A DNA stretch of 64,000 nt. It comes from Acidiferrobacter sp. Lineage in GTDB: Bacteria > Pseudomonadota > Gammaproteobacteria > Acidiferrobacterales > Acidiferrobacteraceae. The stretch lies in assembly GCA_035530915.1 (NCBI GenBank), contig DATKTV010000037.1:8039-72038 (forward strand), in the 5' to 3' direction. Shown here in pieces: positions 30,763-49,123 of this stretch. The notes beneath the pieces were generated by a model. The model had not been told where the DNA came from. It saw only the letters and a list, made by a program, of their open reading frames with translations, and did no database searches. Made by a program: the position numbers and the translations under genes. Within the stretch, counting starts at the first letter, position 1. Every line of letters starts with the position of its first letter.

Positions 30763-30810
30763 TTTTTAAACTGTAGGGATTCGGTTGCTGAAGGCTTACG
30801 GTTTGAATGA
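30763..30810. repeat. degenerate copy of the transposon right end, lying outside the left end
   Basis: Ungapped hand alignment of 30764..30810 with 48750..48796 (minus the last base) gives 36 of 47 identical positions: TTTAAAC...TTC..TTGCTGA...CTTA.GGTTT.AATGAC. Confidence 0.5.
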
Positions 30811-30815
30811 CGCAC
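30811..30815. repeat. left copy of 5-bp flanking direct repeat CGCAC (putative target-site duplication)
   Basis: CGCAC immediately precedes the TGTCATT terminus. An identical CGCAC immediately follows the other terminus at 48797..48801. Confidence 0.7.
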
Positions 30816-30955
30816 TGTCATTGCGACCATAAGTCTGTCTGCGATTAACCCATAAGTCTTCGCAGAATTACACAAAACAATGCTAAACGGGCCACCGTTG
30901 CAGCGGCACTTACCCATAAGTCTTCGCAGAGCGCAAATTTAAACCATAAGTCTTC
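30816..30955 (+). repeat. transposon left end: terminal inverted repeat plus four direct transposase-binding-type repeats
   Basis: CCATAAG cores at 30827, 30850, 30914 and 30944, all in the same orientation. Contexts are GACCATAAGTCTGTC, ACCCATAAGTCTTCGCAGA (twice) and AAACCATAAGTCTTCACAA. Confidence 0.8.
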
Positions 30956-31543
30956 ACAAAATGCCTGCTCTATGGTGGGCGTAATGAGCCGTACTTGTTT
31001 GGGCAAGAAGGATGCAACAATACAAGTCTAGGGTCTCGGGAGGGGAAAACGATACGACTTCCTTGTAGTTTGGCCATGTTGTTCATTTGTGGCGCTAGCT
31101 TCATACGCGTGATCGCACCAGAGACTGGTCTGGGAAGAAGCCTTAGCAATCGCCCGAGATCCAGCACATCGAGAGTAGAGGTTCCAGGCTAGGCTCACCG
31201 AATCGTGCCGCGATGGCATCCAGCAAGTTGCGGATGGACTTGGCCTTCAGGTTGAACAGCCTACCCCTGACTATGGCTCAGGCAATGCTTCCGGCATCGG
31301 CTGTTGCGATTTCGTGATGGGTGGTAAAGACTTCCTTTAAGGCACGGGAGGAGTTTTGGTATCTGGCTCCCTCGGTTTTCGTGCTGCAGATGATGAACAG
31401 CGGTTCGTCAAACGGGTCCTTGGGGATTGTAGTGGTCCAAATCCCGATACGATTTCTTGGCTCCGGCCGCAATCTCCACCACATATTTCAGGGGTTTAGT
31501 CGAGAGCCGCACATATTTTCTGACCATGGGTCATGGAGCCGTG

Positions 31544-34418: not shown

Positions 34419-34422
34419 CGGT

Positions 34423-35544: not shown

Positions 35545-35564
35545 GGTTGTCTTAATCCTCTGGG

Positions 35565-36386
35565 CTAATCTGTCGTTTTCAACATCGATTCCAACTGATG
35601 AATGCGGTCTATCAGTTCAGATTTTTTCATCTGCGAGTATTGTTTCACTGGGGCGGGGGCCTGCTTATAAACATTCGCGAATGGCGCATGGTAGTCGACA
35701 AAAGGAGCATCAATGTCCCGAGCCATAACCTTTTCCTTCGCGATCCTTTGAATCCAAAAACCGGCCAAGTTTCTCGTGAACCGTTTTTTGATCTGTTCCT
35801 CAACAGCTGTAAAAATATCTGTGGCTCCATCATCTATGGCGCCGTCCCTACAAACGAACACAGCCAGATCCAACAATGGCGTCGAACCCTTTATCGTGGT
35901 TAGTATCGTCAAGAAATTCGCCATCCAACAATCATGAAAGCGGAGCCCCCACTGCTTCCCGGTAGCCGCGAGCCCCATTTTGAATAGTGGGTGCTTGGGA
36001 CGGTTCGGATAGTAAAATGGGGTAGCTTGGTTTGATGCTTTCTTCAGAGGCACCGTCAGGAAGTTCGACGATATCCTTTTCTCCGGGTGGGTTCCTGCCT
36101 CTTCGATTCTACCTAACTCGGTTACTTGCCTGACCATACCGTGGGAGTTTCCGACCAGAACAAGCTTAGTAAATTCCAGCTCCACTTGCTTGCGGTTATT
36201 TTTCCCTTCCAGACTGCCTGGGTTCAGATCCAGGCTGCTCACTCCGAAATGTTCGAACGTGGCATCGACCGACAAAAAATACATCAGCGCAGACGTTCGC
36301 TCCATATGCGTTTTCCCCGTGGTGTTTCGCGAGGAAAGCCTTTCGAACGACTTGCAAACCAACTCCTGACTGAAATATTTAGCCAT
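35565..36386 (-). CDS. hypothetical protein, no recognisable motif (operon member)
   Basis: A 273-aa ORF, 4 nt downstream of the methyltransferase stop and 20 nt upstream of the ParB-like gene. Codon usage matches its neighbours. Confidence 0.6.
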   Translation of the reverse strand: MAKYFSQELVCKSFERLSSRNTTGKTHMERTSALMYFLSVDATFEHFGVSSLDLNPGSLEGKNNRKQVELEFTKLVLVGNSHGMVRQVTELGRIEEAGTHPEKRISSNFLTVPLKKASNQATPFYYPNRPKHPLFKMGLAATGKQWGLRFHDCWMANFLTILTTIKGSTPLLDLAVFVCRDGAIDDGATDIFTAVEEQIKKRFTRNLAGFWIQRIAKEKVMARDIDAPFVDYHAPFANVYKQAPAPVKQYSQMKKSELIDRIHQLESMLKTTD

Positions 36387-36390
36387 CGCC

Positions 36391-38182: not shown

Positions 38183-38749
38183 TCAGATACGTGCCTGAAT
38201 AGGCGGGTGATTACGCCATTGCGTTTCTATGTTCGCCCGAAGAGCTGTATCCGTAGCAGCCGCGTAAAATATGATCCCAGCGGTCGTTTTGATGTCCTCG
38301 ATAAAATCTTCGGCGACGAAGCATGCGGCATCTGGCGCGTTAGGGCTAGCAAATGATGACAGGTGAGGCTGCCCTTCGGCCCGGTGCGCCAATACGATGG
38401 CCCTTGGGCGACCGCCATTGTCCGTCGCAGCGCCATCGGGAATAAGCGAAAAACTGTGAACGATTCCGCATCGCAGAATAACGTACATCTGGGTGGGCAG
38501 GTCCTGGGCTCCGCTTACATACGTGAAATTGCGATACTCCGCGCGTGTCTGAGCCATATATCGGTCCACGAATGCGATGTAGTGCCCGCGGCCCGCCTTT
38601 CCGCCTGTCACGAGTTTAACGAGATATTCGACCATAGCCGCAGCGCATACAAAAACCCAAGCGTTGCCCATCCCACACATCGCGAGCAATTCATCCGCCC
38701 TATCGTCAAAGTACCGCTTAGCTTCCGCAAGCTCCGTTCCAAGATCCAT
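38183..38749 (-). CDS. hypothetical protein (orphan cargo gene)
   Basis: Start set at MDLGTEL (ATG at 38749), preceded by GGAGAGGAG. 189 aa. Contains one R-x4-H string (RCGIVH), but nothing else I can assign. Confidence 0.55.
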   Translation of the reverse strand: MDLGTELAEAKRYFDDRADELLAMCGMGNAWVFVCAAAMVEYLVKLVTGGKAGRGHYIAFVDRYMAQTRAEYRNFTYVSGAQDLPTQMYVILRCGIVHSFSLIPDGAATDNGGRPRAIVLAHRAEGQPHLSSFASPNAPDAACFVAEDFIEDIKTTAGIIFYAAATDTALRANIETQWRNHPPIQARI

Positions 38750-39012
38750 TCTAATCTCCTCTCCCGGTTGGCCCGGGGTGCGTCCGCGCTTTACGGGGCC
38801 ACTCGGCATGGGCCCGGCGCCCGTACAAGCCCACCCAGCAGCGTTGTCCCGCTTCCCGCCTGACTGGGCGCGCCGGGCCCGTACCGAACAGTCCGCCGAG
38901 CAATAAACGTACCGCCGATCACAAGCGCTGCAAGGGTGGCAGCTTTAGATCAAAATCAGTGGCAGGATTGGGCCGGAATACGCACGCCGCGACCATTGGC
39001 GCCCACGATCGC

Positions 39013-39576
39013 TCAACGGAACTGCCGGCTTACGCCCGTCATCGTCATTCGATAGTTGAACATTCTCACGCTTACGCCGAACTCATTTGCGGCAGAAGCC
39101 GGATCAAGTCGACGTTTCTTTATGCTGATCAGGGCTTCGCGCGGCAGCAACAAACAGCCGGAGAGCCAGTCCGCCTCCTCCTCTTGAAGTTTCTCGTAAC
39201 TTTTAAGAAGCATCAGACCCTCAGCGGATACATCGACCTCCTGCGCCTCGTGGCCCCGGATCCGATGAGCCAATTCGTGAGTCAGATCGCTGGCTTGTCG
39301 AGGACGCGAGTGTGATGAGTTCAATATCACCAATGCCTGATTTTCCATGACGAGCGTGACAGCGGACCAGCAACTCGGTGTCTGACCATCGTCGCGGAGT
39401 AGGGTATTTCGCGCGCCCGCGCTCAATCCAGGCACATCGTGTGGCGTCCACACAGTCACCCCCAGTTTCCTGGCCAGCAAAAATGGGTCGAGCGGATCAC
39501 TTGCTCTTAAGCCGAGCTCGTGACGCATTTCGACTGAATACTTCTCGCACCATGTCTTGAATCCGCGCTCAAACAC
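39013..39576 (-). CDS. ImmA/IrrE-family zinc metallopeptidase (CapP-like)
   Basis: HEXXH motif in DLTHELAHRIRGHE. Starts 2 nt after the stop of the upstream HTH gene. Confidence 0.8.
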   Translation of the reverse strand: MFERGFKTWCEKYSVEMRHELGLRASDPLDPFLLARKLGVTVWTPHDVPGLSAGARNTLLRDDGQTPSCWSAVTLVMENQALVILNSSHSRPRQASDLTHELAHRIRGHEAQEVDVSAEGLMLLKSYEKLQEEEADWLSGCLLLPREALISIKKRRLDPASAANEFGVSVRMFNYRMTMTGVSRQFR

Positions 39577-39578
39577 TG

Positions 39579-39920
39579 TCAGTTTTCAAGCTCGTCCTCA
39601 AAAAACGCCCTATGCGCCAAGAGGATCATTTCGCTTAACGCTTTAGCGCTGTCCGGCTTAATAGCCGTCCCCTTCTTGAAGTGGACCCGCGCGCTGTTCG
39701 TTCCACGTGAAACGGGCTCTAAGCCCAAATATTGGGCTGGGTCCTCGCGCAGCCACTGGCATACCCGTCCGAACGTCTCTAGGTCTGGGATATTTCCGTT
39801 CTCTATCCGGGACAATGTCGCCGGGCTTACGCCGATCTCCTTAGCCGCTTCCCGTACTCCCTTCCCTGCGCGGTACTCCCGTATTCGCCGCGCCAAGCGC
39901 TCAATCTGAGTCGAATCCAT
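39579..39920 (-). CDS. XRE-family helix-turn-helix transcriptional regulator (CapH-like)
   Basis: GVREAAKEIGVSPATLSRIENGN HTH. Start placed at MDSTQ (39920), preceded by AAGGGG. The longer listed ORF overlaps the divergent promoter region. Confidence 0.8.
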   Translation of the reverse strand: MDSTQIERLARRIREYRAGKGVREAAKEIGVSPATLSRIENGNIPDLETFGRVCQWLREDPAQYLGLEPVSRGTNSARVHFKKGTAIKPDSAKALSEMILLAHRAFFEDELEN

Positions 39921-39935
39921 GGTCCCCTTTTTCAT

Positions 39936-40008
39936 ACGTAAGACACAGTGATTGACATGTGCAACAAACGTATGCGACGATGTTGCACGTAAGAGACACC
40001 ACTGTCTC
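39936..40008. promoter_or_regulatory. candidate operator/promoter block in the divergent capH-like / Ubl intergenic region
   Basis: Direct repeats ACGTAAGACAC (39936..39946) and ACGTAAGAGACAC (39987..39999). Inverted repeat GTGCAACA (39959..39966) N14 TGTTGCAC (39981..39988). GACACAGTG (39942..39950) versus CACTGTCTC (40000..40008). A consensus TTGACA lies at 39952..39957. Confidence 0.45.
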
Positions 40009-40077
40009 ATAGAGGCCCCGGGGGGTCAAGATAGGCGAGCCGCCGGGCATTTCTTCCTTTTAAAGCCGAGGTTTACG

Positions 40078-40389
40078 ATGAACGCCGAGACCCGAAGCGA
40101 AAATGACAAACACCGAGATGATGCAAAAGACAGTCTGACCGTGATTTTCGACCACGTGAACAGCCTCCGAACGGTCGAGGTTAAGGCGGGGGAAGACGAA
40201 ACCCTTGGCGCGCTATGGGACAGGGCGTGCGCGAAAATGACGGAGGCTCGGCGGGCCGTTGACCATTTGCAGGCAGCCGATGGCCAGGACCTCACGCCCT
40301 ATCTGGCGCTCACCTTGCTTAAGCTTCAAGAAAAGCTGGGAATCAAAATACATAAGATCGAGATAGTGGGCCCGACAGGGGGGGCATAG
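40078..40389 (+). CDS. bilA: ubiquitin-like (beta-grasp-sized) protein ending in Gly-Gly-Ala
   Basis: 103 aa from an ATG at 40078, preceded by GAGG. C-terminus ...IEIVGPTGGA*. First gene of the Ubl-E2-JAB-E1 operon. Symbol given by analogy to the Bil operon order as I recall it. Confidence 0.65.
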   Translation: MNAETRSENDKHRDDAKDSLTVIFDHVNSLRTVEVKAGEDETLGALWDRACAKMTEARRAVDHLQAADGQDLTPYLALTLLKLQEKLGIKIHKIEIVGPTGGA

Positions 40390-40391
40390 GC

Positions 40392-40892
40392 ATGGCCGCG
40401 CTGGTGCCATTACAGGATGTCCACGGCGGCCGAGAGGCGTTCGCGCGCGATCTCGCGACGGTCTTAAAAGGTGCCAGCCTAACAGAGCGTGGGTGGGCGG
40501 CGCCTAACGACCTCACGCTGCTAGTGCCACTGTTCCCTGTAAACGCCGCAGGCAACTGCGATGCGTACCTGCTCCGACTTTTCTTTGATCACTACTCGAA
40601 TGGGCCACCCAGCGCGCAATTCGTCAACCCCTTGACCTTATCCTATGTTTTTCCCAACGACGTCATGTGGGTCCCGTGCATCGCGGGTCACCCAAGCATC
40701 GCCTTTCATACGAATTTCAATAACAGCCTTCAGCTTATTTGTTCATCCACGACGCTGGAGTTCTACAAGGTGAACCACGCGGTGGCCGAAGAGCACCTCT
40801 GGCGCACCGGGCAGATGACGTTCTTGAGCACTCTCGCCGCTATCCGGGCTGGCCTAGCGCCGCCTTACTACAAGGGCAGGTCGGCGAGATGA
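40392..40892 (+). CDS. bilB: E2-like ubiquitin-conjugating enzyme homologue
   Basis: 166 aa. NGPPSAQFVNP...WVPCIAGHP...LQLICSS resembles the UBC-fold region around the catalytic Cys. 2-nt gap from the Ubl gene and ATGA overlap with the JAB gene. Confidence 0.6.
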   Translation: MAALVPLQDVHGGREAFARDLATVLKGASLTERGWAAPNDLTLLVPLFPVNAAGNCDAYLLRLFFDHYSNGPPSAQFVNPLTLSYVFPNDVMWVPCIAGHPSIAFHTNFNNSLQLICSSTTLEFYKVNHAVAEEHLWRTGQMTFLSTLAAIRAGLAPPYYKGRSAR

Positions 40893-41428
40893 ACGACGAC
40901 AAAAGCCAACAGCGTCCTCAACCAACGACGCCTTACGTCGCGACTGGCCGCGTCACAAAAATCGACCCGCGCGTACTTACCATGACTCGCCGCACGCTCC
41001 GGGCTGCGGGACAGAAAGAGGCTGGGTGTCTGTGGTTGGGCGCAGTGGCGGCAAACGGCGAGGCGTCTGTCGAGGCCATTGTCGTCCCCAAACAAACGAA
41101 TCGAGCTAGGAACTTCTCTATTGCGGCGGGCGCGATGCGCGAAATCGCCACGCTGGCGCGCCCCCAAAAGTGGGTCCTAGTCGCGGCGGTCCATTCCCAT
41201 CCGGGTATTTCGGTGGAGCATTCGGAATACGATGACAAGATGGTGCCGAGCCGTCACGCCCTGTCGCTTGTGTTCGCCCACTACGGCGCGGAGCGGGGAG
41301 CATGGCCGAACGGGGTGGGCGTCCATGAGTTTGTTGATGACTATTGGCACCTACTGTCGCCAGAAGATGCCGCAAAGCGCGTGACCCTTGCGCATATCCC
41401 TAGACTTCAGCTGCTGGATTTACGATGA
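40889..41428 (+). CDS. bilC: JAB/JAMM (MPN+) metallopeptidase
   Basis: Start at MNDDKSQ (40889). EAGCLWLG Glu motif and a JAMM signature HSHPGISVEHSEYD (HxHx7Sx2D). Confidence 0.8.
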   Translation: MNDDKSQQRPQPTTPYVATGRVTKIDPRVLTMTRRTLRAAGQKEAGCLWLGAVAANGEASVEAIVVPKQTNRARNFSIAAGAMREIATLARPQKWVLVAAVHSHPGISVEHSEYDDKMVPSRHALSLVFAHYGAERGAWPNGVGVHEFVDDYWHLLSPEDAAKRVTLAHIPRLQLLDLR

Positions 41429-42990
41429 GCACGAATATCGATCTGCTAGGAGACCGGCACTTCCGAACCGACCCCCAAGGCGTTCTTCGGCCGAAACGCG
41501 ACGGGCGGTGCGGACGCGTTCTTTTGACTGTGGCCCCATTCCTTGCGGACACCCCGGCCGGGCAGCATCTGGCGTGGATGCTGACTAACCAACTAGCGCG
41601 CCAGTTCGGTGTGGTGACTAAAATTACGCTCCATATACCGGAAGCTGCACTGATCGAGAATACGGCGGCCTTTGGAGCCAAGACGTCTCTTCGCGACACC
41701 CTTGCCGAATGCGTCCGGCTCGTGGCGCGGGAGCATGTCGAGGTGCAGACAGGTCTCGGAAGCGCGGATCATTTTGAAGTTCATATCGCGGTGGGCGCCG
41801 CAAGAAATCTCGTCAGCGCCGAGCGCGCCTGGTGCCTCTATGCGGACGGGTGGCGCTGGTATGTCGGCAACGGCACCCATATCCCCACAAACCGACCGAC
41901 CAGCAACTTGAGTTTCGGACCCTACATGGCAGCGAGTTTCGCCGCCGGAGAGGCATTTAAGCACCTGCGGGGGATGCTGCCAAATAAAGGCGTCTTTATC
42001 ACCGAGTGCCTTGGGTCCGCCTGGACCATGAGCCTCGGGACCACATGGAATGATTTGATGGATGGTCCTGGGAACGAGGCCCTTCCTGCATTGCCGCACT
42101 TTTATTTTGCGGGCGCTGGCGCCGTGGCACAAGCCGCCGCCCTGACGTTGGGGAGCTCTCGGCTAAGAGGCTCTGCCACCGTGATTGACCACGACACGTT
42201 AGATCTTACGAACGGTAACCGCTATGTCCTCTCTCCGATGGATGACGATCAGTCACCAAAAGCGAACATTGTCAGCGCCTACCTGACGAAGCAAGGGCTC
42301 CTTGGCCGCCCTGCACCAGTTAAATGGAGCACATATGTCGGGGCGCAGGGCGGGATGACTGGGAGCGAATCCATACGGCGGCTTGAGCAGCGTTATCGCT
42401 TCCCCACCGTGCTGTCTTGCGTTGACAAAAATGGCCCCCGCCATGAAATCCAGTCCCTGCTTCCGGAAATAATCATTGGCGGCAGCACGGACGGCCTTGT
42501 TGCTAGGGTATCGACCTTCTATATGGCACATGACGCGGCTTGCCTGAAATGCTTCAACCCTATTGAGGACCGCAACGCCATTATTGAGAAAAAGCTCAGG
42601 CTATTAGTCACCATGACAGCTGACGAACGCGAGGCGTGGGTTGTCGAGCACAGTCTTCCAGTCGCTGATATTGCACGCCTTTTGGCGCCTAGCGTGTGCG
42701 GCCAGCTCAGCGAGAGCGATCTTCAGCGATTCGCCGAGGGGCCGCCGGAAATGTCAGTAGGTTTTGTTTCAGTGACCGCGGGCGTTTTGCTTTCGGCACA
42801 GCTAGTCCGCCTTGTCCAAAGAGGCGTTGATGATGCTACCCAAAACGGACATACCGTCATAACAACCTTTGCTCAGGCGAGCATGCGACACCTCAGGAGC
42901 GGCCCCGATGCTCAGTGCAACTGCGCGCCGGAGCTGCGCAGTCGATGGCACCGCTTGTGGGGAGCTCCTGAGCCATCGGCGGGATACTGA
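41425..42990 (+). CDS. bilD: E1-like ThiF/MoeB-family adenylating enzyme (two-domain size)
   Basis: 521 aa. FAGAGAVAQ nucleotide-binding loop near residue 230, VIDHDTLDLTNGNRY, CVDKNGPRHE, CLKCFNP. ATGA overlap with the JAB gene. Confidence 0.8.
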   Translation: MSTNIDLLGDRHFRTDPQGVLRPKRDGRCGRVLLTVAPFLADTPAGQHLAWMLTNQLARQFGVVTKITLHIPEAALIENTAAFGAKTSLRDTLAECVRLVAREHVEVQTGLGSADHFEVHIAVGAARNLVSAERAWCLYADGWRWYVGNGTHIPTNRPTSNLSFGPYMAASFAAGEAFKHLRGMLPNKGVFITECLGSAWTMSLGTTWNDLMDGPGNEALPALPHFYFAGAGAVAQAAALTLGSSRLRGSATVIDHDTLDLTNGNRYVLSPMDDDQSPKANIVSAYLTKQGLLGRPAPVKWSTYVGAQGGMTGSESIRRLEQRYRFPTVLSCVDKNGPRHEIQSLLPEIIIGGSTDGLVARVSTFYMAHDAACLKCFNPIEDRNAIIEKKLRLLVTMTADEREAWVVEHSLPVADIARLLAPSVCGQLSESDLQRFAEGPPEMSVGFVSVTAGVLLSAQLVRLVQRGVDDATQNGHTVITTFAQASMRHLRSGPDAQCNCAPELRSRWHRLWGAPEPSAGY

Positions 42991-43080: not shown

Positions 43081-45750
43081 ATGCGAACGACAGCCGAAAT
43101 AGATATGCTTTGTGATCGCTTGAATATCCCGCCCAATGGGCGTGCCCTGATTGAACGTATCCGGAATTCACCACCCTCTCGCACGGTCCAGGGGGGACGC
43201 GGCAACGTCTGCGCGCGCTATCCGAGCCGCAAGATGGGGCACACCATTCAAGCCGAGAGCCATACGCTCGAACTGCCCGGCATTTACGATATGGAATATG
43301 ACAGCGATGTTCTTGAGTACTACGATCAGCCGCCCGTGATCAAGTTGCGCTACGTGACCCTCTCGGGTCGCAAGACTGGAGCGTTTCATACCCCGGACTT
43401 CCTCGTTATCAGCAACGCCCGGGTGGGGTGGGTTGAGTGGAAGCGCGAAGGCGAGCTAGCGATGCTGGCAGCCAAGCAGCCGGGTAGGTACCGTCAGGAT
43501 GCCGACGGTCAGTGGCGCTGCCCGCCTGGGGAGGAGTACGCCGCCTCCTTCGGCCTCCAGTATGCCCTCCGGACCGAACGATCCCTCAACCAGACGATCT
43601 ACCAAAACCTGGTCTTCTTGGAGGATTACTTTGCCAGAGAAGCACCCGAGCCGGACTCGACGCTTATTGAAGCGGTCCGGGCTAGGCTGCGCGCCCGGCC
43701 TGGCATGACGCTCGCCGACTTGCGACGAGAGGAGGGCGGGCTCACGCCCGACAAGATCTTTAGCCTTATCGCCCGCGGAACGGTCTACTGCGACCTAGGG
43801 GCCGTGCACTTGGGCGAGGCGAACCACGTGCGGCTTTTCCTCGACGAAACCACAGGCGCGGCCTTTCGGAGCGCTGCTGATAGCCGACGAGACGATGCTC
43901 AACTCCCGTTCACGCCTATCGTGCAGCGCCCCGGCCAGACGTTCCGCTGGGACGGTAATCTTTGGACCATTCTCAATGTCGGCGCGAGCAAGATATTTGT
44001 CGGAAGTACCGCCGGAGATCACATCGCCCTGGAGGAGGCGGTCTTCGCGAAGCTCATTACCGAAGGCGCGATTTGCGGGGTGGTTGGCGCCCCTTCGGCC
44101 TCGCACCCGATCAGCGACAAGATCTTAACCAAAGCGCGCCCCGAGGACCTCGCGCTCGCCAATAGCCGGTACGCATTGATCCGCCCCTTGCTCGAGGGCG
44201 GACAGCCCGCTCAAAGCGATGTGACGAGGCGCACACAGTACGCCTACCTGAAGCAGTGGCGCGCTGCGGAAGAAAGCCTGGGTTGTGGCTACCTTGGACT
44301 CTTGCCCGGCCATGCACGGAAGGGCAACCGCACGGCGCGACTGTCGGAGGAGTCCCTGAAATATCTTGACGAGACTATCGATAGTTACTACGAAACCATC
44401 CGCGCCACCTCGGTCTGGGTCGGCTATGGACGTTACCTCAACGTCTGTGAGGAACACGGCGTCATCGCAGCTAGTTATATGACGTTCACAAAGCATGTGG
44501 CGCGCCGACCGCTCGATAAACAGATTCGTCGACGCGAGGGACGGAAACGCGCCTACCCGCACGAGGAATTCTACTGGCGACTGGATAGCCATGTCCCTCG
44601 ACACGGCTCAAGGCCATTTGAAATAGCCCATATCGATCACACGGAAATTCAGCTGGAGATCGCTTCCTCCTGGACGCACAAGTCGTTAGGACGCGCGTGG
44701 CTGACTCTGATGGTCGATGCCTTCACTCGCATGGTGTTGGCCTTTGCTTTGTCCTTTGAGCCCCCAAGCTACCGGTCTTGCATGAGCGTCCTTCGCGACT
44801 GCGTGCGACGGCACGGCCGACTGCCCAAGACCATCGTAGTCGACCGTGGCGCAGAATTCGGCGGCGTGTATTTTCAAACATTGCTCGCCCGTTTTGAGAT
44901 TATTCAAAAAAGTCGGCCGCCCTCCATGCCGCGGTTTGGAAGCGTCGTCGAACGGCTGTTCGGCGCGACCCAATCCCAACTCATCGATAACCTCCTCGGC
45001 AACACCAAGATCACGCGCCACGTTCGCCAAATGGCGCCCGAAGTAGACCCAAAACGCCACGCCCTGTGGACACTGGAGAAATTTAACGCCCTTTTTGAGG
45101 CGTGGCTTACGGAGTTTTATGCGGTGACCCCTCATCCGGCGTTGGGTCAATCCCCCAAGGATGCCCTAGAACAGGGTCTGGCGGAAACGGGCTTACGCGA
45201 CTTTACGCGGATTGCCTATGACGACAATTTTCGCCTCTTGACGAGTCCCACGACACCCCGTGGCGTGGCACGCGTGCATCCGGCGCGCGGCATTAAGATC
45301 AATTACCTCTACTACTGGTCAACGGCCTTTCGCGACGCGCGTTTTGCTCGCGGGAAGGTGAATGTCCCCGTTCGTTACGATGCCTACGACGCCGGAGTCG
45401 CCTACGCATTGGTCGGTTCATGTTGGGTCACCTGTCGCTCGGAGCGCTATACCGAATTTCAAGGACGTACAGAGCGGGAAATCCAAATGGCTTCTGCAGA
45501 GCTTCGGCAGCAAAACACTGATCACGGTCGCCAGCGTACGGTAACGGCGCGGAAGCTGGGGGCATTCCTCATCTCAGCCGAGGTCGGAGAGCGATTGGCC
45601 TTGGAGCGAGAACGGGAATCCGAAACGCGGCACGTGCGGGAGCATTACGAGACGCCATTAAAGGCAGTGTCGACCGGAACTACGTCCAGCAAACCCGATG
45701 CTTCGCCAGCGGTGCGCAAGAAAAAACCGAAGCTACTGGAGACGTTTTGA
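43081..45750 (+). CDS. fused TnsA-like endonuclease / TnsB-like DDE transposase
   Basis: N-terminal AESHTLE...TPDFLV...VEWK (E, D, ExK, as in TnsA-type endonucleases). Then an rve-type DDE core: IAHIDHT, IVVDRGAEFGG, VVERLFG. Start uncertain: the listed ORF begins at a GTG at 43021 and the first ATG is at 43081. Confidence 0.8.
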   Translation: MRTTAEIDMLCDRLNIPPNGRALIERIRNSPPSRTVQGGRGNVCARYPSRKMGHTIQAESHTLELPGIYDMEYDSDVLEYYDQPPVIKLRYVTLSGRKTGAFHTPDFLVISNARVGWVEWKREGELAMLAAKQPGRYRQDADGQWRCPPGEEYAASFGLQYALRTERSLNQTIYQNLVFLEDYFAREAPEPDSTLIEAVRARLRARPGMTLADLRREEGGLTPDKIFSLIARGTVYCDLGAVHLGEANHVRLFLDETTGAAFRSAADSRRDDAQLPFTPIVQRPGQTFRWDGNLWTILNVGASKIFVGSTAGDHIALEEAVFAKLITEGAICGVVGAPSASHPISDKILTKARPEDLALANSRYALIRPLLEGGQPAQSDVTRRTQYAYLKQWRAAEESLGCGYLGLLPGHARKGNRTARLSEESLKYLDETIDSYYETIRATSVWVGYGRYLNVCEEHGVIAASYMTFTKHVARRPLDKQIRRREGRKRAYPHEEFYWRLDSHVPRHGSRPFEIAHIDHTEIQLEIASSWTHKSLGRAWLTLMVDAFTRMVLAFALSFEPPSYRSCMSVLRDCVRRHGRLPKTIVVDRGAEFGGVYFQTLLARFEIIQKSRPPSMPRFGSVVERLFGATQSQLIDNLLGNTKITRHVRQMAPEVDPKRHALWTLEKFNALFEAWLTEFYAVTPHPALGQSPKDALEQGLAETGLRDFTRIAYDDNFRLLTSPTTPRGVARVHPARGIKINYLYYWSTAFRDARFARGKVNVPVRYDAYDAGVAYALVGSCWVTCRSERYTEFQGRTEREIQMASAELRQQNTDHGRQRTVTARKLGAFLISAEVGERLALERERESETRHVREHYETPLKAVSTGTTSSKPDASPAVRKKKPKLLETF

Positions 45751-46907
45751 TGAGCCAAAAACCGCGCAAGGTCGACCACGAAGGCGATAGGTCGCTCATC
45801 GCCAGAGTGGGAGCCTTCCAGCGAATCACCGTCAAACACCGCAAACTCGAGGAGGCCCTTGAGAGTCTTTTGGCATACCTCTTCAACGAAGCTGAGGAGG
45901 GGATTATTTGCATCATCGGGCCCACCGGGGTCGGGAAGACCACCCTGCGTAAGCTCTGTATCACTGCTGTGCTAGCGCACGAGATCTCGGCGATGGACGA
46001 GGACCGCGGCTACATTCCGATCATGGAGGTCGAGGCCCGTGCGCCAGAGCGGGGCAACTTCGACTGGGCCACCTTCTACCGAGATAGTCTGGTCGCCTTA
46101 CAGGAACCCTTGGTAGACCGAAAGATCCTGACCAAAGAGGATAGCGCAAAGGTGAGGGCGGAGGGCAATGGTGCGCCTGGATTCCGTAGCCTCCTACAGT
46201 ATCGCATTGCTCTCGACAATGCCCTAAAGTTTCGGCACGTTAAGTATTTTTTGATTGACGAAGCGCAGACGCTTCTCAAGGTATCATCCGCCCGTTTGGC
46301 TGGCGACCAAATGGACACCATCAAGTCGCGGGCTTCGCTCACCGGCGTCCAGCACGCATTGATTGGCACCTATGAGCTGTTGAATACGGGAGACCTTAGC
46401 GCCCAGTTAAGTCGTCGGCGCCGCAACATTCACCTCCCTCGTTACGATTGCGACAACGCGGCCGACTTGGAAGAATTTATCAGCGTCATTCATACCTTCC
46501 AGTCACGCCTTCCGCTACCATGTAGCCGCGACCTTGTCGAGTCCGCCGACTTCCTTTATGCGAAAACGCTGGGCTGCGTCGGCATCTTGAAGACCTGGCT
46601 GAATGGGGTGGTCAGCACGGCCGCACAGCTGGGAGCTACCAAAATCACCATAAAAGATCTTGAGAGAAAAGCTTTGCCCAATCGAGATTTGATGACCATG
46701 CTGGCTGAAATCCGAGAAGGCGAGGACCAGTTTGCCGGACCCTCTGACACCACGCTGATGGCGGAATTGGGCCTCAAGAAGAGTCCGCACAGCAACGAGA
46801 ACGGCGCTGACGCGACGCAGGTAACAGACGCAGCAAAGACGCCCAGGCGTCGCCCTGGGCAGCGGCGGCCAACCCGAGACCCTATCGGAAGGAGCGCAAT
46901 TGCCTAA
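45747..46907 (+). CDS. TnsC/TniB-like AAA+ ATPase transposition regulator
   Basis: Walker A IIGPTGVGKTTL and Walker B FLIDEAQ. ATGA overlap with the transposase gene. Confidence 0.8.
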   Translation: MMSQKPRKVDHEGDRSLIARVGAFQRITVKHRKLEEALESLLAYLFNEAEEGIICIIGPTGVGKTTLRKLCITAVLAHEISAMDEDRGYIPIMEVEARAPERGNFDWATFYRDSLVALQEPLVDRKILTKEDSAKVRAEGNGAPGFRSLLQYRIALDNALKFRHVKYFLIDEAQTLLKVSSARLAGDQMDTIKSRASLTGVQHALIGTYELLNTGDLSAQLSRRRRNIHLPRYDCDNAADLEEFISVIHTFQSRLPLPCSRDLVESADFLYAKTLGCVGILKTWLNGVVSTAAQLGATKITIKDLERKALPNRDLMTMLAEIREGEDQFAGPSDTTLMAELGLKKSPHSNENGADATQVTDAAKTPRRRPGQRRPTRDPIGRSAIA

Positions 46908-48303
46908 TCGGCTGATTGAAATCATCAATGAAACAACCGGCGAATCTACGCAGCCGCCACCGCGCACGCCGTTTTACAGCCTTCCCCCGATAGGGGTTGG
47001 GACATGGGCCGTGGAAAGCACAACAGGATACATTGCTCGACTCGCCAAGAGTCACGGAATAATTGTTAGGGATCTAATTGCGGCGGCTTCGGGGGGAAAG
47101 CGTAGGCAAAATGGTGAATGGATTTTATTTTCCCAAAAACATGGCAGCGCGCTCCTAAACGGGGTTGGTCGGACTGCAAATGAGTGGGGGACGAGATTGA
47201 ATGCTCTTACCGGGCAGCCAATTATTCACAGAACAAGCCTTGGCCACTTGGAACATATATTTCGCAACGGCAAGGTTTTGAGGTATGACAGAGCATGGTG
47301 TTCCCAGTGTCTGGACGAGATGCGCCAACAAGGGCGCGTGTACGAGCGACTTATTTGGTCATTACGCCACGCGACGGTGTGCCCCAAGCATGGTGCATAC
47401 TTATCCGCCATGTGCCCGCATTGTGGTAATAAGGGAATGCGGCTTCTTAGTAATACACAGGTTCCGGGCTATTGCGTTTCCTGTAGCAACTGGCTTGGGG
47501 AGACCAAAAAGGCGAAAGGTGCCGAGCCGAAACGTTGGGGCTCGTGGATATCGTTACAAATGGGGCATTTAGTCGCAGCCGCATCGTCAGACCAGCGCGC
47601 CTGCACCGCAGCCAATGTGGTCGAAAACCTTCACGTTCTCGTTCGGATTATCTGCGAGGGACAACATATCATGATGAGGTTTGCGAAAGCGATCGACGCC
47701 CCTAAATCTACATGCTCCACATGGCTTAGTGGGAGAACACTCCCCACGCTGGACTATTGGTTACGAATAGCATGGGCATCGGGCTTGGATCTCGATCGGC
47801 TGCTCTTTTGTTCCCTGGCGGAAACGGACGAGTCTTTTCATTACGGGGAGCCGAGACACGACAAACCCTGGGAGCAACGTCCGACACGGCCCAATCGGGA
47901 CTGGGCATTGGCAGAGCGACGCCTTACGGAGATCTGCGCCTCTGGTAGGTTCGCCGAACAAAGTATGACACGAATCGCGGCCGATCTCGGAGTGGGCCGA
48001 GAAACGCTGAAGGCTCATTTCCCTTTGCTTTATGGGGAAATTTACGCACGAAGCACAGGTGAGCGCTCGGCTCAGGAATCGCAGCAAAAGGAGATGCGGA
48101 AAAAGCAGGTTCAGGATGCGGTAGTGGCGCTCCGTAATCGCGGACATGCACCTACTCGCCGGCAGGTGGCACAGGAACTTGGGGTAGCAGAAGTGAGTTT
48201 TCGTAGACTTGAATTTCAGGACGCTTGGCGGTCATGTGTAGGCACGGCCACACCTGAAACCCTGCCGGAGATCGACATGATGGGTCAGCGAAAATCTGAA
48301 TAA
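46900..48303 (+). CDS. tniQ: TniQ/TnsD-family target-selection protein
   Basis: N-terminal TniQ-type region (LPPIGVGTWAVESTTGYIARLAKSHG). Zinc-ribbon CSQCLDE...CPKHG...CPHCG...CVSC. 8-nt overlap with the upstream ATPase gene. Confidence 0.8.
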   Translation: MPNRLIEIINETTGESTQPPPRTPFYSLPPIGVGTWAVESTTGYIARLAKSHGIIVRDLIAAASGGKRRQNGEWILFSQKHGSALLNGVGRTANEWGTRLNALTGQPIIHRTSLGHLEHIFRNGKVLRYDRAWCSQCLDEMRQQGRVYERLIWSLRHATVCPKHGAYLSAMCPHCGNKGMRLLSNTQVPGYCVSCSNWLGETKKAKGAEPKRWGSWISLQMGHLVAAASSDQRACTAANVVENLHVLVRIICEGQHIMMRFAKAIDAPKSTCSTWLSGRTLPTLDYWLRIAWASGLDLDRLLFCSLAETDESFHYGEPRHDKPWEQRPTRPNRDWALAERRLTEICASGRFAEQSMTRIAADLGVGRETLKAHFPLLYGEIYARSTGERSAQESQQKEMRKKQVQDAVVALRNRGHAPTRRQVAQELGVAEVSFRRLEFQDAWRSCVGTATPETLPEIDMMGQRKSE

Positions 48304-48723
48304 TGTGCCACCCTTGATTATCCAATGCCTATCGGGTTGACGGTCAACGATTCCACGCCAGGGGATTTCTGGCCTAAAATGGAGCGCAGATTCCCTTCTG
48401 GGGCAGCAAGTTGACCACAGATGGTCCGCGCGCACGGCTTGGGCGTTAACCGGATAGGCGGGGAATGCAACCATGCTGCCGAGGCGGTACTCGGCTTCGG
48501 CCAGATATGTGGGTTTTCTGAATTCCGCCCCGAGATAGGCCAGAACAAACTTATTTGGTGCTTGTAACGCGGATGCGAAAAGGGGGCGCGACAGTTGAAA
48601 ATTTGCCCCAGGGCATAGTGACGAGGCTCTCCGAGATTTGAAGCCGCGCCGCCACCAATCGCTTAGCGTAGCGCCGCTTGACCACAAACCAGCGAGAGTC
48701 GCTGTGCGCTTCGGGAAGCTTTT

Positions 48724-48796
48724 AAACCATAAGTCTTCAGTAGGCCACTTTAAACCATAAGCCTTCATTTGCTGACGACTTATGGTTTAAATGACA
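48724..48796 (+). repeat. transposon right end: terminal inverted repeat plus two oppositely oriented internal sites
   Basis: AAACCATAAGTCTTC (48724..48738) and AAACCATAAGCCTTC (48752..48766) read in the same direction as the left-end sites. The terminal site GACTTATGGTTTAAATGACA (48777..48796) is inverted. AAACCATAAG (48752..48761) and CTTATGGTTT (48779..48788) form a perfect 10-bp inverted repeat with a 17-nt spacer. Confidence 0.8.
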
Positions 48797-48801
48797 CGCA
48801 C
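48797..48801. repeat. right copy of 5-bp flanking direct repeat CGCAC
   Basis: Immediately follows the terminal ...ATGACA. Identical to 30811..30815. Confidence 0.7.
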
Positions 48802-48825
48802 AGGGAAAGCTGTTGAGGAGCTTAT

Positions 48826-48901
<76 letters not shown>

Positions 48902-49123
48902 GAAGCGCGCATTAAAGCCGCTCAATCCCGCGGCGTCAAGGCTCACAAGCTTACACGCTTGCCGGGTTGGCGTCTCCTGGGCTATTTGTGCGGAAAAACG
49001 ACCCCATCATATTCGTTCTGGACCGCTATGCGTGGGGCGATTTACGGGGACCAGCAAAGCGCTGGGGCCCGCCGTCTTGTTGGCCGGCCGACAAGGGGGC
49101 ACAAATTGCCGTATCATGGCACC

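What the first reader, a model, noticed from the sequence alone, without database searches (positions are those of the whole stretch)
39013..42990. Complete bacterial ubiquitination-like operon (Ubl-E2-JAB-E1) with a divergent XRE/ImmA (CapH/CapP-like) regulator pair
Seen: four translationally coupled genes are joined by a 2-nt gap and then two ATGA overlaps. They encode a 103-aa protein ending in GGA, an E2-sized protein with a UBC-like Cys region, a JAMM peptidase (HSHPGISVEHSEYD) and a 521-aa ThiF-type E1 whose nucleotide loop (GAGAVAQ) sits near residue 230. That leaves room for an N-terminal inactive adenylation domain. On the opposite strand lie an HTH gene and, 2 nt later, an HEXXH ImmA-type peptidase. 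Established (from memory of the 2022-2024 literature): Bil (bacterial ISG15-like) operons in the order Ubl-E2-JAB-E1 conjugate a Ubl to targets and defend against phage. CapH/CapP HTH-plus-metallopeptidase pairs derepress CBASS and other defence operons after DNA damage. Inference: this is a Bil-type system under damage- or infection-responsive CapH/CapP-like control, carried as transposon cargo.
Basis: partly seen in the sequence, partly recalled or inferred. Interest (0 to 1): 0.75.

Follow-up and report, generated by a model that had tools for sequence, protein, structure and literature searches.

The report
Divergent Bil ubiquitin-like defence operon
This stretch of an Acidiferrobacter genome encodes a complete bacterial ubiquitin-like protein-tagging system of the kind known to block phage assembly, plus a repressor/protease switch, inside a Tn7-like transposon; it belongs to a known kind but to a branch that current annotation models miss.

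Summary
Window 39013-42990 holds six genes: an M78/ImmA peptidase and an XRE HTH on the minus strand, then Ubl (103 aa, ends GGA), E2, JAB and E1 on the plus strand. The last four are joined by a 2-nt gap and two ATGA overlaps.

Homology places all four enzymes with the published BilABCD system.
- E1 aligns full length with E. aridi BilD (hhalign 99.4%). The Zn cysteines and the catalytic Cys line up.
- The JAB profile's best solved match is BilC (3e-12).
- The E2 model (pLDDT 93.8) has BilB as best fold match, and a family profile aligns C117/E123/H129 with the CEHH residues.
- The Ubl model is a beta-grasp matching ubiquitin, SUMO and BilA.

The six-gene layout recurs in 27 species across at least seven phyla.

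However, the window proteins miss every Pfam signature of Type II Bil and score only weakly on PADLOC Bil models. I therefore read this as a divergent Bil branch.

The peptidase is too short (187 aa) for CapP's ssDNA-sensing GAF domain, so it is ImmA-like.

In the window the locus lies in an 18-kb Tn7-like island beside tRNA-Phe.

Defence, targets and the inducing signal remain inferred. Novelty: new variant of a known kind. Interest is moderate.

The parts
39013..39576 (-). ImmA/IrrE-family (M78) zinc peptidase, 187 aa. HELAH at residues 100-104, third-ligand region EEEAD at 132-136. No GAF domain and no cysteine-switch Cys.
   Evidence: Pfam Peptidase_M78 8.8e-15, residues 79-177. PADLOC capP 1.1e-7, covering only model positions 40-151 of 242. 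Motif positions. No solved relative found by sequence.
39579..39920 (-). XRE-family HTH repressor candidate, 113 aa from MDSTQ (an alternative start at 39935 gives MKKGT). N-terminal HTH plus a roughly 50-aa C-terminal tail.
   Evidence: Pfam HTH_31 1.5e-9 and HTH_3 3.2e-9. Called as 113 aa in relatives. Its stop lies 2 nt from the peptidase start.
39921..40077 (.). Divergent control region. Contains an inverted repeat GTGCAACA-N14-TGTTGCAC (39959-39988), a direct repeat ACGTAAGA(C/G)ACA (39936-39947 and 39987-39998), a near-palindrome TAAGAGACA-N4-TGTCTCATA (39990-40011) and a TTGACA box (39952-39957).
   Evidence: Repeats. Positions 39921-40011 differ at 2 positions among three lineages whose coding DNA differs by about 10%. 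TAAGAC/GTCTTA-type hexamers occur 13 times against 0.36 expected in the equivalent regions of six loci from different phyla; the motif set was chosen post hoc. No consensus sigma-70 promoter was found.
40078..40389 (+). Ubl (BilA-like), 103 aa. Disordered charged N-terminus (residues 1-19), one beta-grasp domain, C-terminus TGGA.
   Evidence: AF2 core pLDDT about 85 with beta-beta-alpha-beta-alpha-beta topology. Foldseek probability 1.00 to ubiquitin, SUMO, Caldiarchaeum Ub and BilA 8tyx_A, TMt 0.75. G101, G102 and A103 are invariant in 35 and 20 homologues. No HMM or PDB sequence hit.
40392..40892 (+). E2 (BilB-like), 166 aa. YSNGPPS at residues 68-74, H106, catalytic-candidate C117 (codon at 40740), E123, Y125, H129.
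   Evidence: AF2 pLDDT 93.8. Best fold matches are BilB 8tyz_C and 8tz0_C, followed by UBE2L6, UbcH7 and TSG101 UEV. hhalign of family profile A6 against E. aridi BilB gives 96%, E 3.9e-9, with C117=C138, E123=E144, Y125=H146, H129=H151. Invariant residues. No Pfam, PADLOC or NCBIfam hit.
40889..41428 (+). JAB/JAMM peptidase (BilC-like), 179 aa. E44, H102-S-H104, S112, D115.
   Evidence: Pfam Prok-JAB 4.6e-8. PADLOC BilC 5.2e-10, near full length. The family profile's best PDB hit is DUB(BilC) 8tyx_B at 3.3e-12. Invariant residues.
41425..42990 (+). E1 (BilD-like), 521 aa. N-terminal inactive adenylation domain with invariant D10-R11. Active domain with GAGAVAQ 230-236, R266 and D334. Zn site C373/C376 plus C498/C500. 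Helical insert carrying catalytic-candidate C425 (codon at 42697).
   Evidence: PADLOC BilD 6.7e-15, residues 32-291. PDB best hit 8tyz_A BilD at 8.4e-7. hhalign 99.4%, E 5.7e-22 over residues 28-505 against 31-497, with the cysteines aligned. Invariant residues. Precomputed BilD_N (weak) on the identical protein.
43081..48303 (+). Tn7-like transposition module: TnsA-TnsB fusion (43081-45750; the ORF opens at GTG 43021), TniB/TnsC-like ATPase (45747-46907) and TniQ (46900-48303). It lies 30-90 nt downstream of the E1 gene on the same strand, with no terminator between them.
   Evidence: Pfam Tn7_TnsA-like_N + rve, TniB/AAA_22 and TniQ. No terminator-like site or strong hairpin in the gap. Adjacency is conserved in relatives L033-L036.
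30766..30956 (.). Left cluster of end-like repeats: six copies or near-copies of AACCATAAGTCTTC, including a palindromic pair.
48721..48798 (.). Right cluster of the same repeats (three copies, including the palindromic pair), 30 nt from the 3' end of tRNA-Phe (48826-48901, minus strand).
   Evidence: Host core genes lie outside both clusters. GC is 0.50-0.60 inside against 0.60-0.68 to the right.

Best explanation
This is a functional Bil-type (bacterial ISG15-like) ubiquitin-like conjugation system from a divergent branch of the BilABCD kind. It has its own repressor/protease switch and is carried as cargo of a Tn7-like element.

Proposed mechanism:
1. The XRE repressor binds the TAAGAC/GTCTTA-type repeats in the 157-bp divergent control region and keeps the operon low. 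This step is inferred.
2. A signal activates the short ImmA-type metallopeptidase, which cleaves the repressor in its C-terminal half, as in ImmR/ImmA and CapH/CapP. The step is inferred and the signal is unknown. The CapP ssDNA groove cannot exist here.
3. The JAB peptidase removes the terminal Ala103 of the Ubl, exposing Gly102. This is inferred from the invariant GGA end and from the demonstrated G97|A98 cleavage in E. aridi.
4. The E1 adenylates Gly102 in its active adenylation domain, with R11 of the inactive domain completing the site, and forms a thioester on C425 of the mobile helical insert.
5. The Ubl passes to C117 of the E2, assisted by H129, and then to lysines of target proteins, most likely phage structural proteins, impairing virion assembly or infectivity.
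6. The JAB peptidase also reverses off-target conjugates.

Shown here: gene content, folds, homology, conserved catalytic residues, conserved synteny with the regulators, and the mobile-element context. Not shown: any activity, the targets, or the defence phenotype.
For: Homology of the four enzymes to BilABCD:
- E1 is colinear with BilD across the IAD, AAD, CYS insert and Zn site.
- The JAB profile's best solved match is BilC.
- The E2 has a UBC fold with BilB as best fold match, and the CEHH-region residues align.
- The Ubl is a beta-grasp with an invariant GGA end.

Conservation:
- Catalytic residues are invariant across phyla.
- The genes are translationally coupled.
- The operon is conserved in 27 species.
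- An M78 peptidase lies divergently upstream in 18 of 24 loci.
- Operator-like repeats are shared by six distant loci.

Context: neighbours are defence or mobile-element genes, namely Dcm methylase and SNF2 helicase in the window, and Wadjet-like MukBEF, RES-Xre, anti-restriction, integrase and methylases elsewhere.

Literature:
- Type I Bil defends against phage by tagging the central tail fibre (10.1101/2023.09.04.556158).
- In Type II, BilC cleaves G|A, E1 and E2 conjugate to lysines, and 15% of operons carry CapH/CapP (10.1101/2023.09.26.559546).
Against: - No experiment exists on this branch.
- The Ubl and E2 are not detectable by any curated model: Pfam Metal_CEHH, DUF2604 and Prok-E2_C, PADLOC BilA/BilB, and NCBIfam.
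- E2 and Ubl profiles do not find the solved BilB or BilA by sequence.
- Foldseek E-values are modest, 1.8e-2 for E2 and 1.2e-3 for Ubl, although probabilities are about 1.
- No consensus promoter was found in the control region.
- The targets of Type II Bil are themselves unknown, and a stress-response role has been suggested.
- No relatives were found on viral contigs.
Confidence: 0.8

Rival explanations
1. The conjugation machinery is real but does not serve phage defence. It tags host or element proteins as part of a stress response or of the transposon's own biology, for example controlling transposition or host physiology after DNA damage.
For: - The biological role of Type II Bil and Bub pathways is stated to be unknown, with stress-response roles suggested.
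- The operon sits 30-90 nt upstream of tnsAB on the same strand with no terminator, and this adjacency is kept in three lineages.
- No viral-contig relatives were found.
Against: - In the 27 other loci the cassette occurs without tns genes, so it is not a transposition accessory.
- Its neighbours are typical defence-island genes.
- The only Bil system tested in vivo defends against phage.
Confidence: 0.12
2. The HTH/M78 pair is primarily the mobile element's ImmR/ImmA-type switch. It controls a long transcript that runs from the Ubl gene through tnsAB-tniB-tniQ, so induction couples defence expression to transposition.
For: - The short, GAF-less peptidase resembles ImmA of ICEBs1 in size and domain content.
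- There is no terminator between the E1 gene and tnsAB.
- The conserved block in relatives runs from the peptidase stop to inside tniQ.
Against: - The pair accompanies the Bil cassette in 18 of 24 loci that lack tns genes, so its conserved partner is the Bil operon.
- Co-transcription is untested.
Confidence: 0.2
3. The locus is a sulfur-carrier or cofactor system of the ThiS/MoaD-ThiF/MoeB type, or a CBASS Cap2/Cap3-type accessory, rather than a protein-conjugation system.
For: ThiF-family adenylation domain. Weak NCBIfam hits to ThiF and MoeB, E 0.012-0.1.
Against: - A separate E2 with a UBC fold and conserved Cys.
- A pseudo-dimeric E1 with an IAD and a Cys-bearing insert.
- A JAB peptidase is present, but no CD-NTase and no sulfur-transfer or thiazole genes in the operon.
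- NCBIfam scores are 14.7 bits against cut-offs of 275-437.
Confidence: 0.02
4. The copy in this window is an inactive remnant.
For: Some family members are decayed. L001/L007 has a split E1, no callable Ubl and a peptidase without HExxH. L003 has an E1 in three pieces.
Against: In the window all six ORFs are intact, overlap-coupled, and retain every invariant residue.
Confidence: 0.04

Closest known systems
Type II BilABCD (CEHH/'6C' operons; Ensifer aridi TW10; PDB 8tyx, 8tyz, 8tz0)
   Same: - Same gene order, Ubl-E2-JAB-E1.
- The E1 is colinear over about 470 residues, with the CxxC + CxC zinc site, the Cys-bearing helical insert and an N-terminal DR arginine.
- The JAB profile's best solved match is BilC.
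- The E2's best fold match is BilB, and C, E and the last H of CEHH align.
- The Ubl has a single beta-grasp and ends Gly-Ala, like G97-A98.
- The family shows the same Ubl variety: disordered or coiled-coil N-termini, and three-domain Ubls.
- CapH/CapP-type pairs sit divergently upstream.
   Different: - The window proteins hit none of the Pfam models that E. aridi proteins hit at 116-336 bits: Prok-E2_C, Metal_CEHH and DUF2604.
- The third CEHH residue is an invariant Tyr, and the last His is one residue closer.
- About 18 fewer residues lie between the PPS..FVxP motif and the Cys.
- E1 identity is only 21-23%.
- Regulators are present in 75% of loci, against 15%.
Type I BilABCD (Collimonas sp. 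OK412; 'bacterial ISG15-like' defence system)
   Same: Four-gene Ubl-E2-JAB-E1 operon. PADLOC BilC and BilD models hit the window's JAB and E1, and some family E2s weakly hit PADLOC BilB. This is the only Bil system with a proven anti-phage phenotype and known target.
   Different: - The Type I Ubl has two beta-grasp domains and ends directly in Gly. Here there is one domain ending in GGA.
- PADLOC scores are as low for the window (52.7 bits, half the model) as for the Type II E. aridi E1 (50.9 bits).
- There are no BilA or BilB hits.
CapH/CapP (CBASS-associated DNA-damage switch) and IrrE/DdrO
   Same: An XRE HTH plus an HExxH M78 peptidase, adjacent and divergent from the regulated operon. 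The peptidase domain hits PADLOC capP at 1.1e-7. Long, CapP-sized versions of 286-321 aa replace the short one in other members of the same operon family, and L037 hits capP at 8.7e-17 and capH at 4.8e-9.
   Different: CapP and IrrE have three domains (peptidase, HTH-like linker, GAF), and ssDNA binds between the peptidase and GAF domains. The window protein ends about 10 residues after the M78 domain, so it has no GAF domain. It also has no Cys in the switch-loop region, and its HTH does not hit the capH model.
ImmR/ImmA of ICEBs1 and phage-like elements
   Same: A short single-domain M78 anti-repressor protease encoded next to its XRE repressor on a mobile element. Size and domain content match.
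   Different: No direct sequence test was possible because no ImmA model was in the libraries used. ImmA is triggered through RecA or RapI. No such partner is encoded here.
Bub operons and CBASS Cap2/Cap3
   Same: Bacterial E1/E2/Ubl-type conjugation linked to immunity.
   Different: Bub uses oxyester intermediates, peptidase-E1 or E2-E1 fusions and a DUF6527 serine protease. Cap2 is an E1-E2 fusion that conjugates a CD-NTase. None of these features is present here.
Tn7-like transposons carrying defence cargo
   Same: TnsA/TnsB, TniB and TniQ genes, insertion beside a tRNA gene, clusters of short repeats at both ends, and restriction-modification-like cargo.
   Different: The tns genes lie at the tRNA-proximal end and are transcribed outward, with cargo upstream of tnsA. 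TnsA and TnsB are fused. The ends are not mapped to the nucleotide, and close relatives lack the repeats.

Membership tests
BilABCD (broad sense) | Four genes in the order Ubl - E2 - JAB peptidase - E1 | tested here: met
   Coordinates and junctions. The same order is found in 27+ loci.
BilABCD (broad sense) | E1 with an inactive N-terminal adenylation domain, an active adenylation domain, a Cys-bearing helical insert and a 4-Cys zinc site | tested here: met
   hhalign 99.4% over residues 28-505 against E. aridi BilD. C373/C376, C425 and C498/C500 align with C340/C343, C417 and C491/C493. D10-R11 is invariant. This rests on sequence homology only; no structure of the E1 was predicted.
BilABCD (broad sense) | E2 with a UBC-like fold, a catalytic Cys and an adjacent conserved His | tested here: met
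   pLDDT 93.8. Best fold matches are BilB and then UBE2L6 and UbcH7. C117 and H129 are at least 90% conserved in 62 relatives and align with C138 and H151.
BilABCD (broad sense) | Beta-grasp Ubl with a conserved C-terminal Gly (at the end, or followed by a short tail removed by BilC) | tested here: met
   Beta-grasp model matching ubiquitin, SUMO and BilA. GGA is invariant, with tails of 2-11 aa in some members. Cleavage itself was not tested.
BilABCD (broad sense) | Ubl-target conjugation and anti-phage activity | not testable with these tools
   Requires biochemistry and phage challenge.
Type II Bil (CEHH/6C) | E2 is a Metal_CEHH (PF14455) protein with the Cys-Glu-His-His motif | tested here: not met
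   No PF14455 hit at E<=0.1, whereas E. aridi BilB scores 336 bits. The motif here is C117-E123-Y125-H129, three of four residues, with an invariant Tyr. Only 7 of 62 distant relatives touch PF14455, best 1.6e-9.
Type II Bil (CEHH/6C) | The E1 N-terminal domain matches Prok-E2_C (PF14459), and the Ubl matches DUF2604 (PF10790) | tested here: not met
   No hits for the window proteins. E. aridi scores 256 and 116 bits. Homologues carry only a weak BilD_N (PF27312) hit.
Type II Bil (CEHH/6C) | Listed in the published catalogue of 162/134 operons | not testable with these tools
   The supplementary tables are not held. One hint suggests related operons may be listed: the three-domain Ubl of family member L037 matches the 'Type II' M. 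brachiatum BilA structure 8u38 at 7.9e-17.
Type I Bil | Two-domain (ISG15-like) Ubl ending in Gly, and strong matches to PADLOC BilA-D models | tested here: not met
   The Ubl has one beta-grasp and ends GGA. There are no BilA or BilB hits. BilD scores 52.7 bits over half the model, the same as a Type II protein.
CapH/CapP | An HExxH M78 peptidase next to an XRE HTH, divergent from the regulated operon | tested here: met
CapH/CapP | CapP C-terminal GAF domain forming the ssDNA-binding groove with the peptidase domain | tested here: not met
   The protein is 187 aa and the M78 match ends at residue 177. The capP model is matched only at positions 40-151 of 242. CapP residues needed for ssDNA binding reach position 280. 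No structure was predicted, so this rests on length and domain coverage.
CapH/CapP | The peptidase cleaves the repressor on a DNA-damage signal, and the repressor binds the shared promoter | not testable with these tools
   Indirect support only: conserved operator-like repeats in six loci and a well-conserved control region.
Tn7-like transposon (cargo claim) | TnsA/TnsB, an AAA+ regulator and a TniQ target selector | tested here: met
Tn7-like transposon (cargo claim) | Both ends carry multiple transposase-binding repeats that bracket the operon, with a target-site duplication | tested here: inconclusive
   Repeat clusters lie at 30766-30956 and 48721-48798 beside tRNA-Phe, and there is no end-like repeat between the E1 gene and tnsAB. 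However, the orientation pattern is not a simple inverted repeat, no duplication was identified, and relatives with 91%-identical TnsAB lack the motif.

The most novel reading that the evidence does not exclude
This cassette would represent a third lineage of Bil-type ubiquitination operons, one that present Pfam, PADLOC and NCBIfam models cannot call.

Unlike Types I and II, this lineage would be built as a six-gene unit with a near-obligatory repressor/protease switch. In one sub-branch, including this window, the switch uses a GAF-less ImmA-size peptidase, which must sense something other than ssDNA in the CapP manner.

In Acidiferrobacter the cassette may additionally be read through into tnsAB-tniB-tniQ, so that the same trigger would raise both defence and transposition.
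Probability: 0.3. Interest if true: 0.55.

Novelty: new variant of a known kind. Interest (0 to 1): 0.4.

Why it matters
Bil systems are the clearest bacterial counterparts of eukaryotic ubiquitin/ISG15 conjugation, and only two types have been described and studied.

- A rare but phylum-spanning branch that curated models do not recognise implies that surveys based on those models undercount these systems. The branch has 123 cluster representatives among 1.84 billion, found in 27 of about 185,000 species genomes by a narrow pattern scan.
- Its sequences fall between the Type I and Type II models, so it could help root the family.
- The tight linkage to a repressor/protease pair, in both long (CapP-like) and short (ImmA-like) forms on otherwise homologous operons, offers a natural comparison for asking what these switches sense.
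- The practical value is modest. This is mainly better annotation and a candidate for biochemical work, not a new principle.

Tried and rejected
- Single-sequence and profile searches of the E2 and Ubl against PDB sequences found nothing relevant. Fold comparison and a wider E2 profile were needed instead.
- hhalign of the narrow E2 profile (A1) and of the Ubl profile against E. aridi BilB and BilA was not significant, with probabilities of 8% and 2%.
- Megablast of the locus against plasmids gave no match. tblastn of the E1 found only 4 plasmid records.
- A viral-contig scan for the E2 found no relative.
- I tested the idea that the Tn7-like right end lies in the 90-nt gap between the E1 gene and tnsAB, which would put the operon outside the element as an attachment site. 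It was rejected because no repeats there recur anywhere in the window.
- I tested the idea of a second, tandem Tn7-like element to the left of 30.8 kb. It was rejected because those ORFs are glycosyl- and methyltransferases.
- Searches for end repeats in relatives L033-L036 found nothing.
- A consensus promoter scan of the control region found nothing.
- Supplementary tables of the Bil papers, needed to see whether relatives are already catalogued, are not held.
- A literature search for DUF7665, BilD_N and Prok-E2 gave nothing useful.
- L039 turned out to be the same sequence as the window and added no information.

Full report
**1. Observation**

- An M78/ImmA-type peptidase lies at 39013-39576 on the minus strand (187 aa, GTG start).
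- An XRE HTH gene ends at 39579, 2 nt from the peptidase start.
- On the plus strand are a 103-aa protein ending GGA (40078-40389), a 166-aa protein (40392-40892), a 179-aa JAB peptidase (40889-41428) and a 521-aa ThiF-type protein (41425-42990).

The junctions read TAG-gc-ATG, AGATGA and CGATGA. The quoted motifs are at the stated places. The proteins are identical to 'hypothetical proteins' of an Acidiferrobacter sp. MAG.

**2. What the four plus-strand genes are**

Curated libraries recognise only two of the four.
- The JAB hits Pfam Prok-JAB (4.6e-8) and PADLOC BilC (5.2e-10).
- The E1 hits ThiF (2.1e-5, below Pfam's cut-off) and PADLOC BilD (6.7e-15, residues 32-291).
- The Ubl and E2 hit nothing in Pfam, PADLOC or NCBIfam.

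*E1.* The best solved relative is BilD of Ensifer aridi (8tyz_A, 8.4e-7). A 14-sequence family profile aligns with E. aridi BilD over residues 28-505 against 31-497 at 99.4% probability (E 5.7e-22). The alignment matches:
- C373/C376 with the crossover-loop zinc cysteines C340/C343;
- C425 with the catalytic C417;
- C498/C500 with C491/C493.

An invariant D10-R11 sits where E. aridi has D8-R9, the arginine that the inactive domain lends to the active site. [quoted passage not shown]

*JAB.* A family profile finds DUB(BilC) 8tyx_B as the best solved protein (3.3e-12). E44, H102, H104, S112 and D115 are invariant.

*E2.* There are 151 homologues at 90% clustering. They share F..Y...PPS..F.NP, H106 and QLIC(S/C)S.TLEFY..H. 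An AlphaFold2 model reaches pLDDT 93.8. Its best fold matches are the E2 chains of the bacterial E1-E2-Ubl complex (8tyz_C, 8tz0_C; probability 1.00 and 0.99). UBE2L6, UbcH7 and the TSG101 UEV domain follow. The narrow profile does not find BilB by sequence. A wider profile of 62 representatives aligns with E. aridi BilB at 96% probability (E 3.9e-9). That alignment pairs C117=C138, E123=E144, Y125=H146 and H129=H151.

*Ubl.* The family was collected from the loci and then by a profile search, giving 260 proteins. Every member ends in T/A-G-G-A, and some carry 2-11 extra residues. The model has a disordered first 19 residues and a beta-grasp core with pLDDT about 85. It matches ubiquitin, SUMO-2, Caldiarchaeum ubiquitin, UFM1 and E. 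aridi BilA (8tyx_A, TMt 0.75), all at probability 1.00.

**3. Conservation**

A scan of one genome per species found 27 loci. They come from Alpha-, Beta- and Gammaproteobacteria, a delta-proteobacterial MAG, Acidobacteriota, Nitrospirota, Planctomycetota and Verrucomicrobiota. Metagenome look-ups added an Anaerolineae genome and others. All keep the order Ubl-E2-JAB-E1. A few are decayed, such as L001/L007 and L003.

An exhaustive profile search of 1.84 billion cluster representatives gave only 123 E2 relatives at E<=1e-3. The family is rare but widely spread, which fits horizontal transfer. Its neighbours are typical of defence islands and mobile elements:
- anti-restriction, RES toxin and a large helicase in L001;
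- an integrase in L003;
- MukBEF-like genes and RES-Xre in L004;
- methyltransferases in L037.

**4. The regulators**

Iterated HMM searches of the loci found an M78 peptidase divergently upstream in 18 of 24 loci with enough flank, usually with an HTH gene beside it. They fall into three size classes:
- short, 175-194 aa, as in the window and in L014-L016, L021-L027;
- long, 286-321 aa, in L004, L006, L008-L012, L018, L019 and L037;
- 392-417 aa, in L026 and L032.

The long L037 pair hits PADLOC capP (8.7e-17) and capH (4.8e-9). The window peptidase hits capP only through its catalytic domain (1.1e-7, model positions 40-151 of 242), and its HTH does not hit capH.

Lau et al. describe CapP as peptidase + HTH-like linker + GAF. 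A 2026 preprint places ssDNA in the groove between the peptidase and GAF domains, with contact residues up to position 280. A 187-aa protein whose M78 match ends at residue 177 cannot have that groove, and it has no Cys in the switch-loop region. The pair is therefore ImmR/ImmA-like in architecture. The genetic logic of CapH/CapP probably applies, but the trigger is unknown.

*The control region (39921-40077).* It holds:
- a perfect 8-bp inverted repeat with a 14-nt spacer (39959-39988);
- a direct repeat ACGTAAGA(C/G)ACA;
- a near-palindrome TAAGAGACA-N4-TGTCTCATA.

Positions 39921-40011 differ at 2 positions among three lineages whose genes differ by about 10%. In five distant loci with the same HTH/short-peptidase subfamily, TAAGAC/GTCTTA-type half-sites recur. 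In four of them these sites lie just downstream of promoter-like boxes. Over six loci there are 13 hexamer matches against 0.36 expected. The hexamer set was chosen after inspection, so this figure is optimistic. No consensus promoter was found in the window itself.

**5. Relation to the published types**

Chambers et al. define Type II Bil as the CEHH/6C operons, in the order Ubl-CEHH/E2-DUB-E1. They show that BilC cuts BilA between G97 and A98. They report CapH/CapP next to 15% of these operons, divergently oriented. Hör et al. describe Type I: a two-domain Ubl ending in Gly, with defence achieved by tagging the phage central tail fibre.

As calibration, I ran the E. aridi sequences printed in the preprint through the same libraries.
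- BilD hits Prok-E2_C at 256 bits, plus ThiF.
- BilB hits Metal_CEHH at 336 bits.
- BilA hits DUF2604 at 116 bits.
- PADLOC BilD gives only 50.9 bits.

The window proteins hit none of those Pfam models, and PADLOC BilD gives 52.7 bits. The locus is therefore about as far from the PADLOC Bil models as a Type II system is, and it lacks the model-level signatures of Type II.

Among 62 distant E2 relatives, 7 touch Metal_CEHH (best 1.6e-9), 3 touch DUF7665 and 10 touch PADLOC BilB (best 4e-5). The family thus lies in the same superfamily, between the modelled groups.

The Gly-Ala end, the single beta-grasp and the range of Ubl architectures in the family resemble Type II. That range includes coiled-coil N-termini in Acidobacteria and a three-domain Ubl in S. 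fredii whose first domains match the 'Type II' M. brachiatum BilA structure at 7.9e-17. I could not read the published operon tables. Some relatives may therefore already be listed under Type II. I file the locus under Bil in the broad sense, as a divergent variant, and not as a strict CEHH/Type II or Type I member.

**6. Mobile-element frame**

Downstream of the E1 gene lie a TnsA-TnsB fusion, a TniB ATPase and TniQ. The gap is 30-90 nt and holds no terminator.

A 14-19-nt motif, AACCATAAGTCTTC, occurs 12 times in the window against 2.5 expected. Nine copies fall in two clusters, at 30766-30956 and 48721-48798. The right cluster is 30 nt from tRNA-Phe. Outside the clusters are host genes:
- glycosyl- and methyltransferases on the left;
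- MutY, AsmA, ThiG and GyrB on the right.

The 18 kb between the clusters has lower GC. It also carries a Dcm methylase, an SNF2 helicase and several unknown genes. No end-like repeat lies between the E1 gene and tnsAB. In the window, the Bil cassette is therefore inside a Tn7-like island.

Caveats:
- The repeat orientation is not a simple inverted pair.
- No target duplication was identified.
- Relatives at 88-90% identity keep peptidase-HTH-Bil-tnsAB-tniB and the 5' part of tniQ, but differ on both sides and lack the motif.

**7. Verdict**

New here:
- The cassette belongs to a branch of the Bil kind that curated models miss.
- The regulator pair is a near-constant part of that branch.
- The peptidase in this window lacks CapP's sensor domain.

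Activity, targets, trigger and defence phenotype remain inferences from homology. Novelty: new variant of a known kind. Interest is moderate (0.4).

Noticed in passing
window 30766-30956 and 48721-48798; tRNA-Phe at 48826-48901 (-): Two clusters of a 14-19-nt repeat (AACCATAAGTCTTC) share a ~50-bp unit with a palindromic pair. They bracket an 18-kb lower-GC island that ends 30 nt from tRNA-Phe. These are probably the ends of the Tn7-like element, but the orientation pattern is irregular and no target duplication was seen.
   Followed up: partly
window 43021/43081-45750: TnsA-like endonuclease N-terminal domain and rve (TnsB) domain lie in one 889-909-aa ORF, a TnsA-TnsB fusion. The tns genes sit at the tRNA-proximal end and are transcribed outward, with cargo upstream of tnsA, unlike canonical Tn7.
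   Followed up: partly
window 47040-48303 (3' part of tniQ) vs L033-L036: Nucleotide homology to close relatives stops inside tniQ (at 47040 and 47324), so the C-terminal part of the target selector differs between otherwise 90%-identical elements. The relatives sit at different genomic sites (Flavodoxin/Pirin/LysR, or RNase H/ISL3 neighbours).
   Followed up: partly
window 40392-40892 vs L033 10315-10815: The E2 gene is 98.2% identical at the nucleotide level to L033, while the flanking Ubl, JAB and E1 genes are 89-91% identical. This local patch of near-identity suggests recent recombination. It is not seen against L035 (91.0%).
   Followed up: no
window 31544-37812 (-): Other cargo of the island: a 410-aa unknown, an SNF2-family helicase (32742-34418), 373-aa and 273-aa unknowns, and a C-5 cytosine methyltransferase (36391-37812). 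This may be a restriction-modification or helicase-based defence module. Relatives carry different cargo at this position (Metallophos + AAA_27 in L033; Dcm + Vsr in L035).
   Followed up: no
window 38183-38809 (-): A 208-aa protein with no Pfam hit lies just beyond the peptidase gene. It is conserved next to the cassette in L035/L036 (E 1.6e-98) but absent in L033/L034.
   Followed up: no
L037 2245-2958 (Sinorhizobium fredii GR64 plasmid pSfreGR64b): In this family member the Ubl has three domains: two Multi_ubiq domains (matching solved filament-forming Ubl3 proteins 9d59, 9cd2 and 8u38), followed by a C-terminal beta-grasp of the window's type ending TGGA. The regulators are full-length and CapH/CapP-like.
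   Followed up: partly
L026 5102-6280 and L032 5103-6356: The M78 peptidase homologues upstream of the cassette are 392-417 aa with no separate HTH gene detected nearby. They may be HTH-peptidase fusions of the RmrA/spr1629 type.
   Followed up: no
L001/L007 (Ca. Ideonella esbjergensis) and L003: These are decayed copies. The E1 is split into two or three ORFs, the Ubl ORF is not called, and the peptidase lacks HExxH in L001/L007. A near-identical metagenome contig (L002) is intact.
   Followed up: no
window 48791-50500 (+): The longest ORF of a radical-SAM protein (569 aa) starts inside the right repeat cluster and overlaps tRNA-Phe on the other strand. The true start is probably further downstream.
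   Followed up: no
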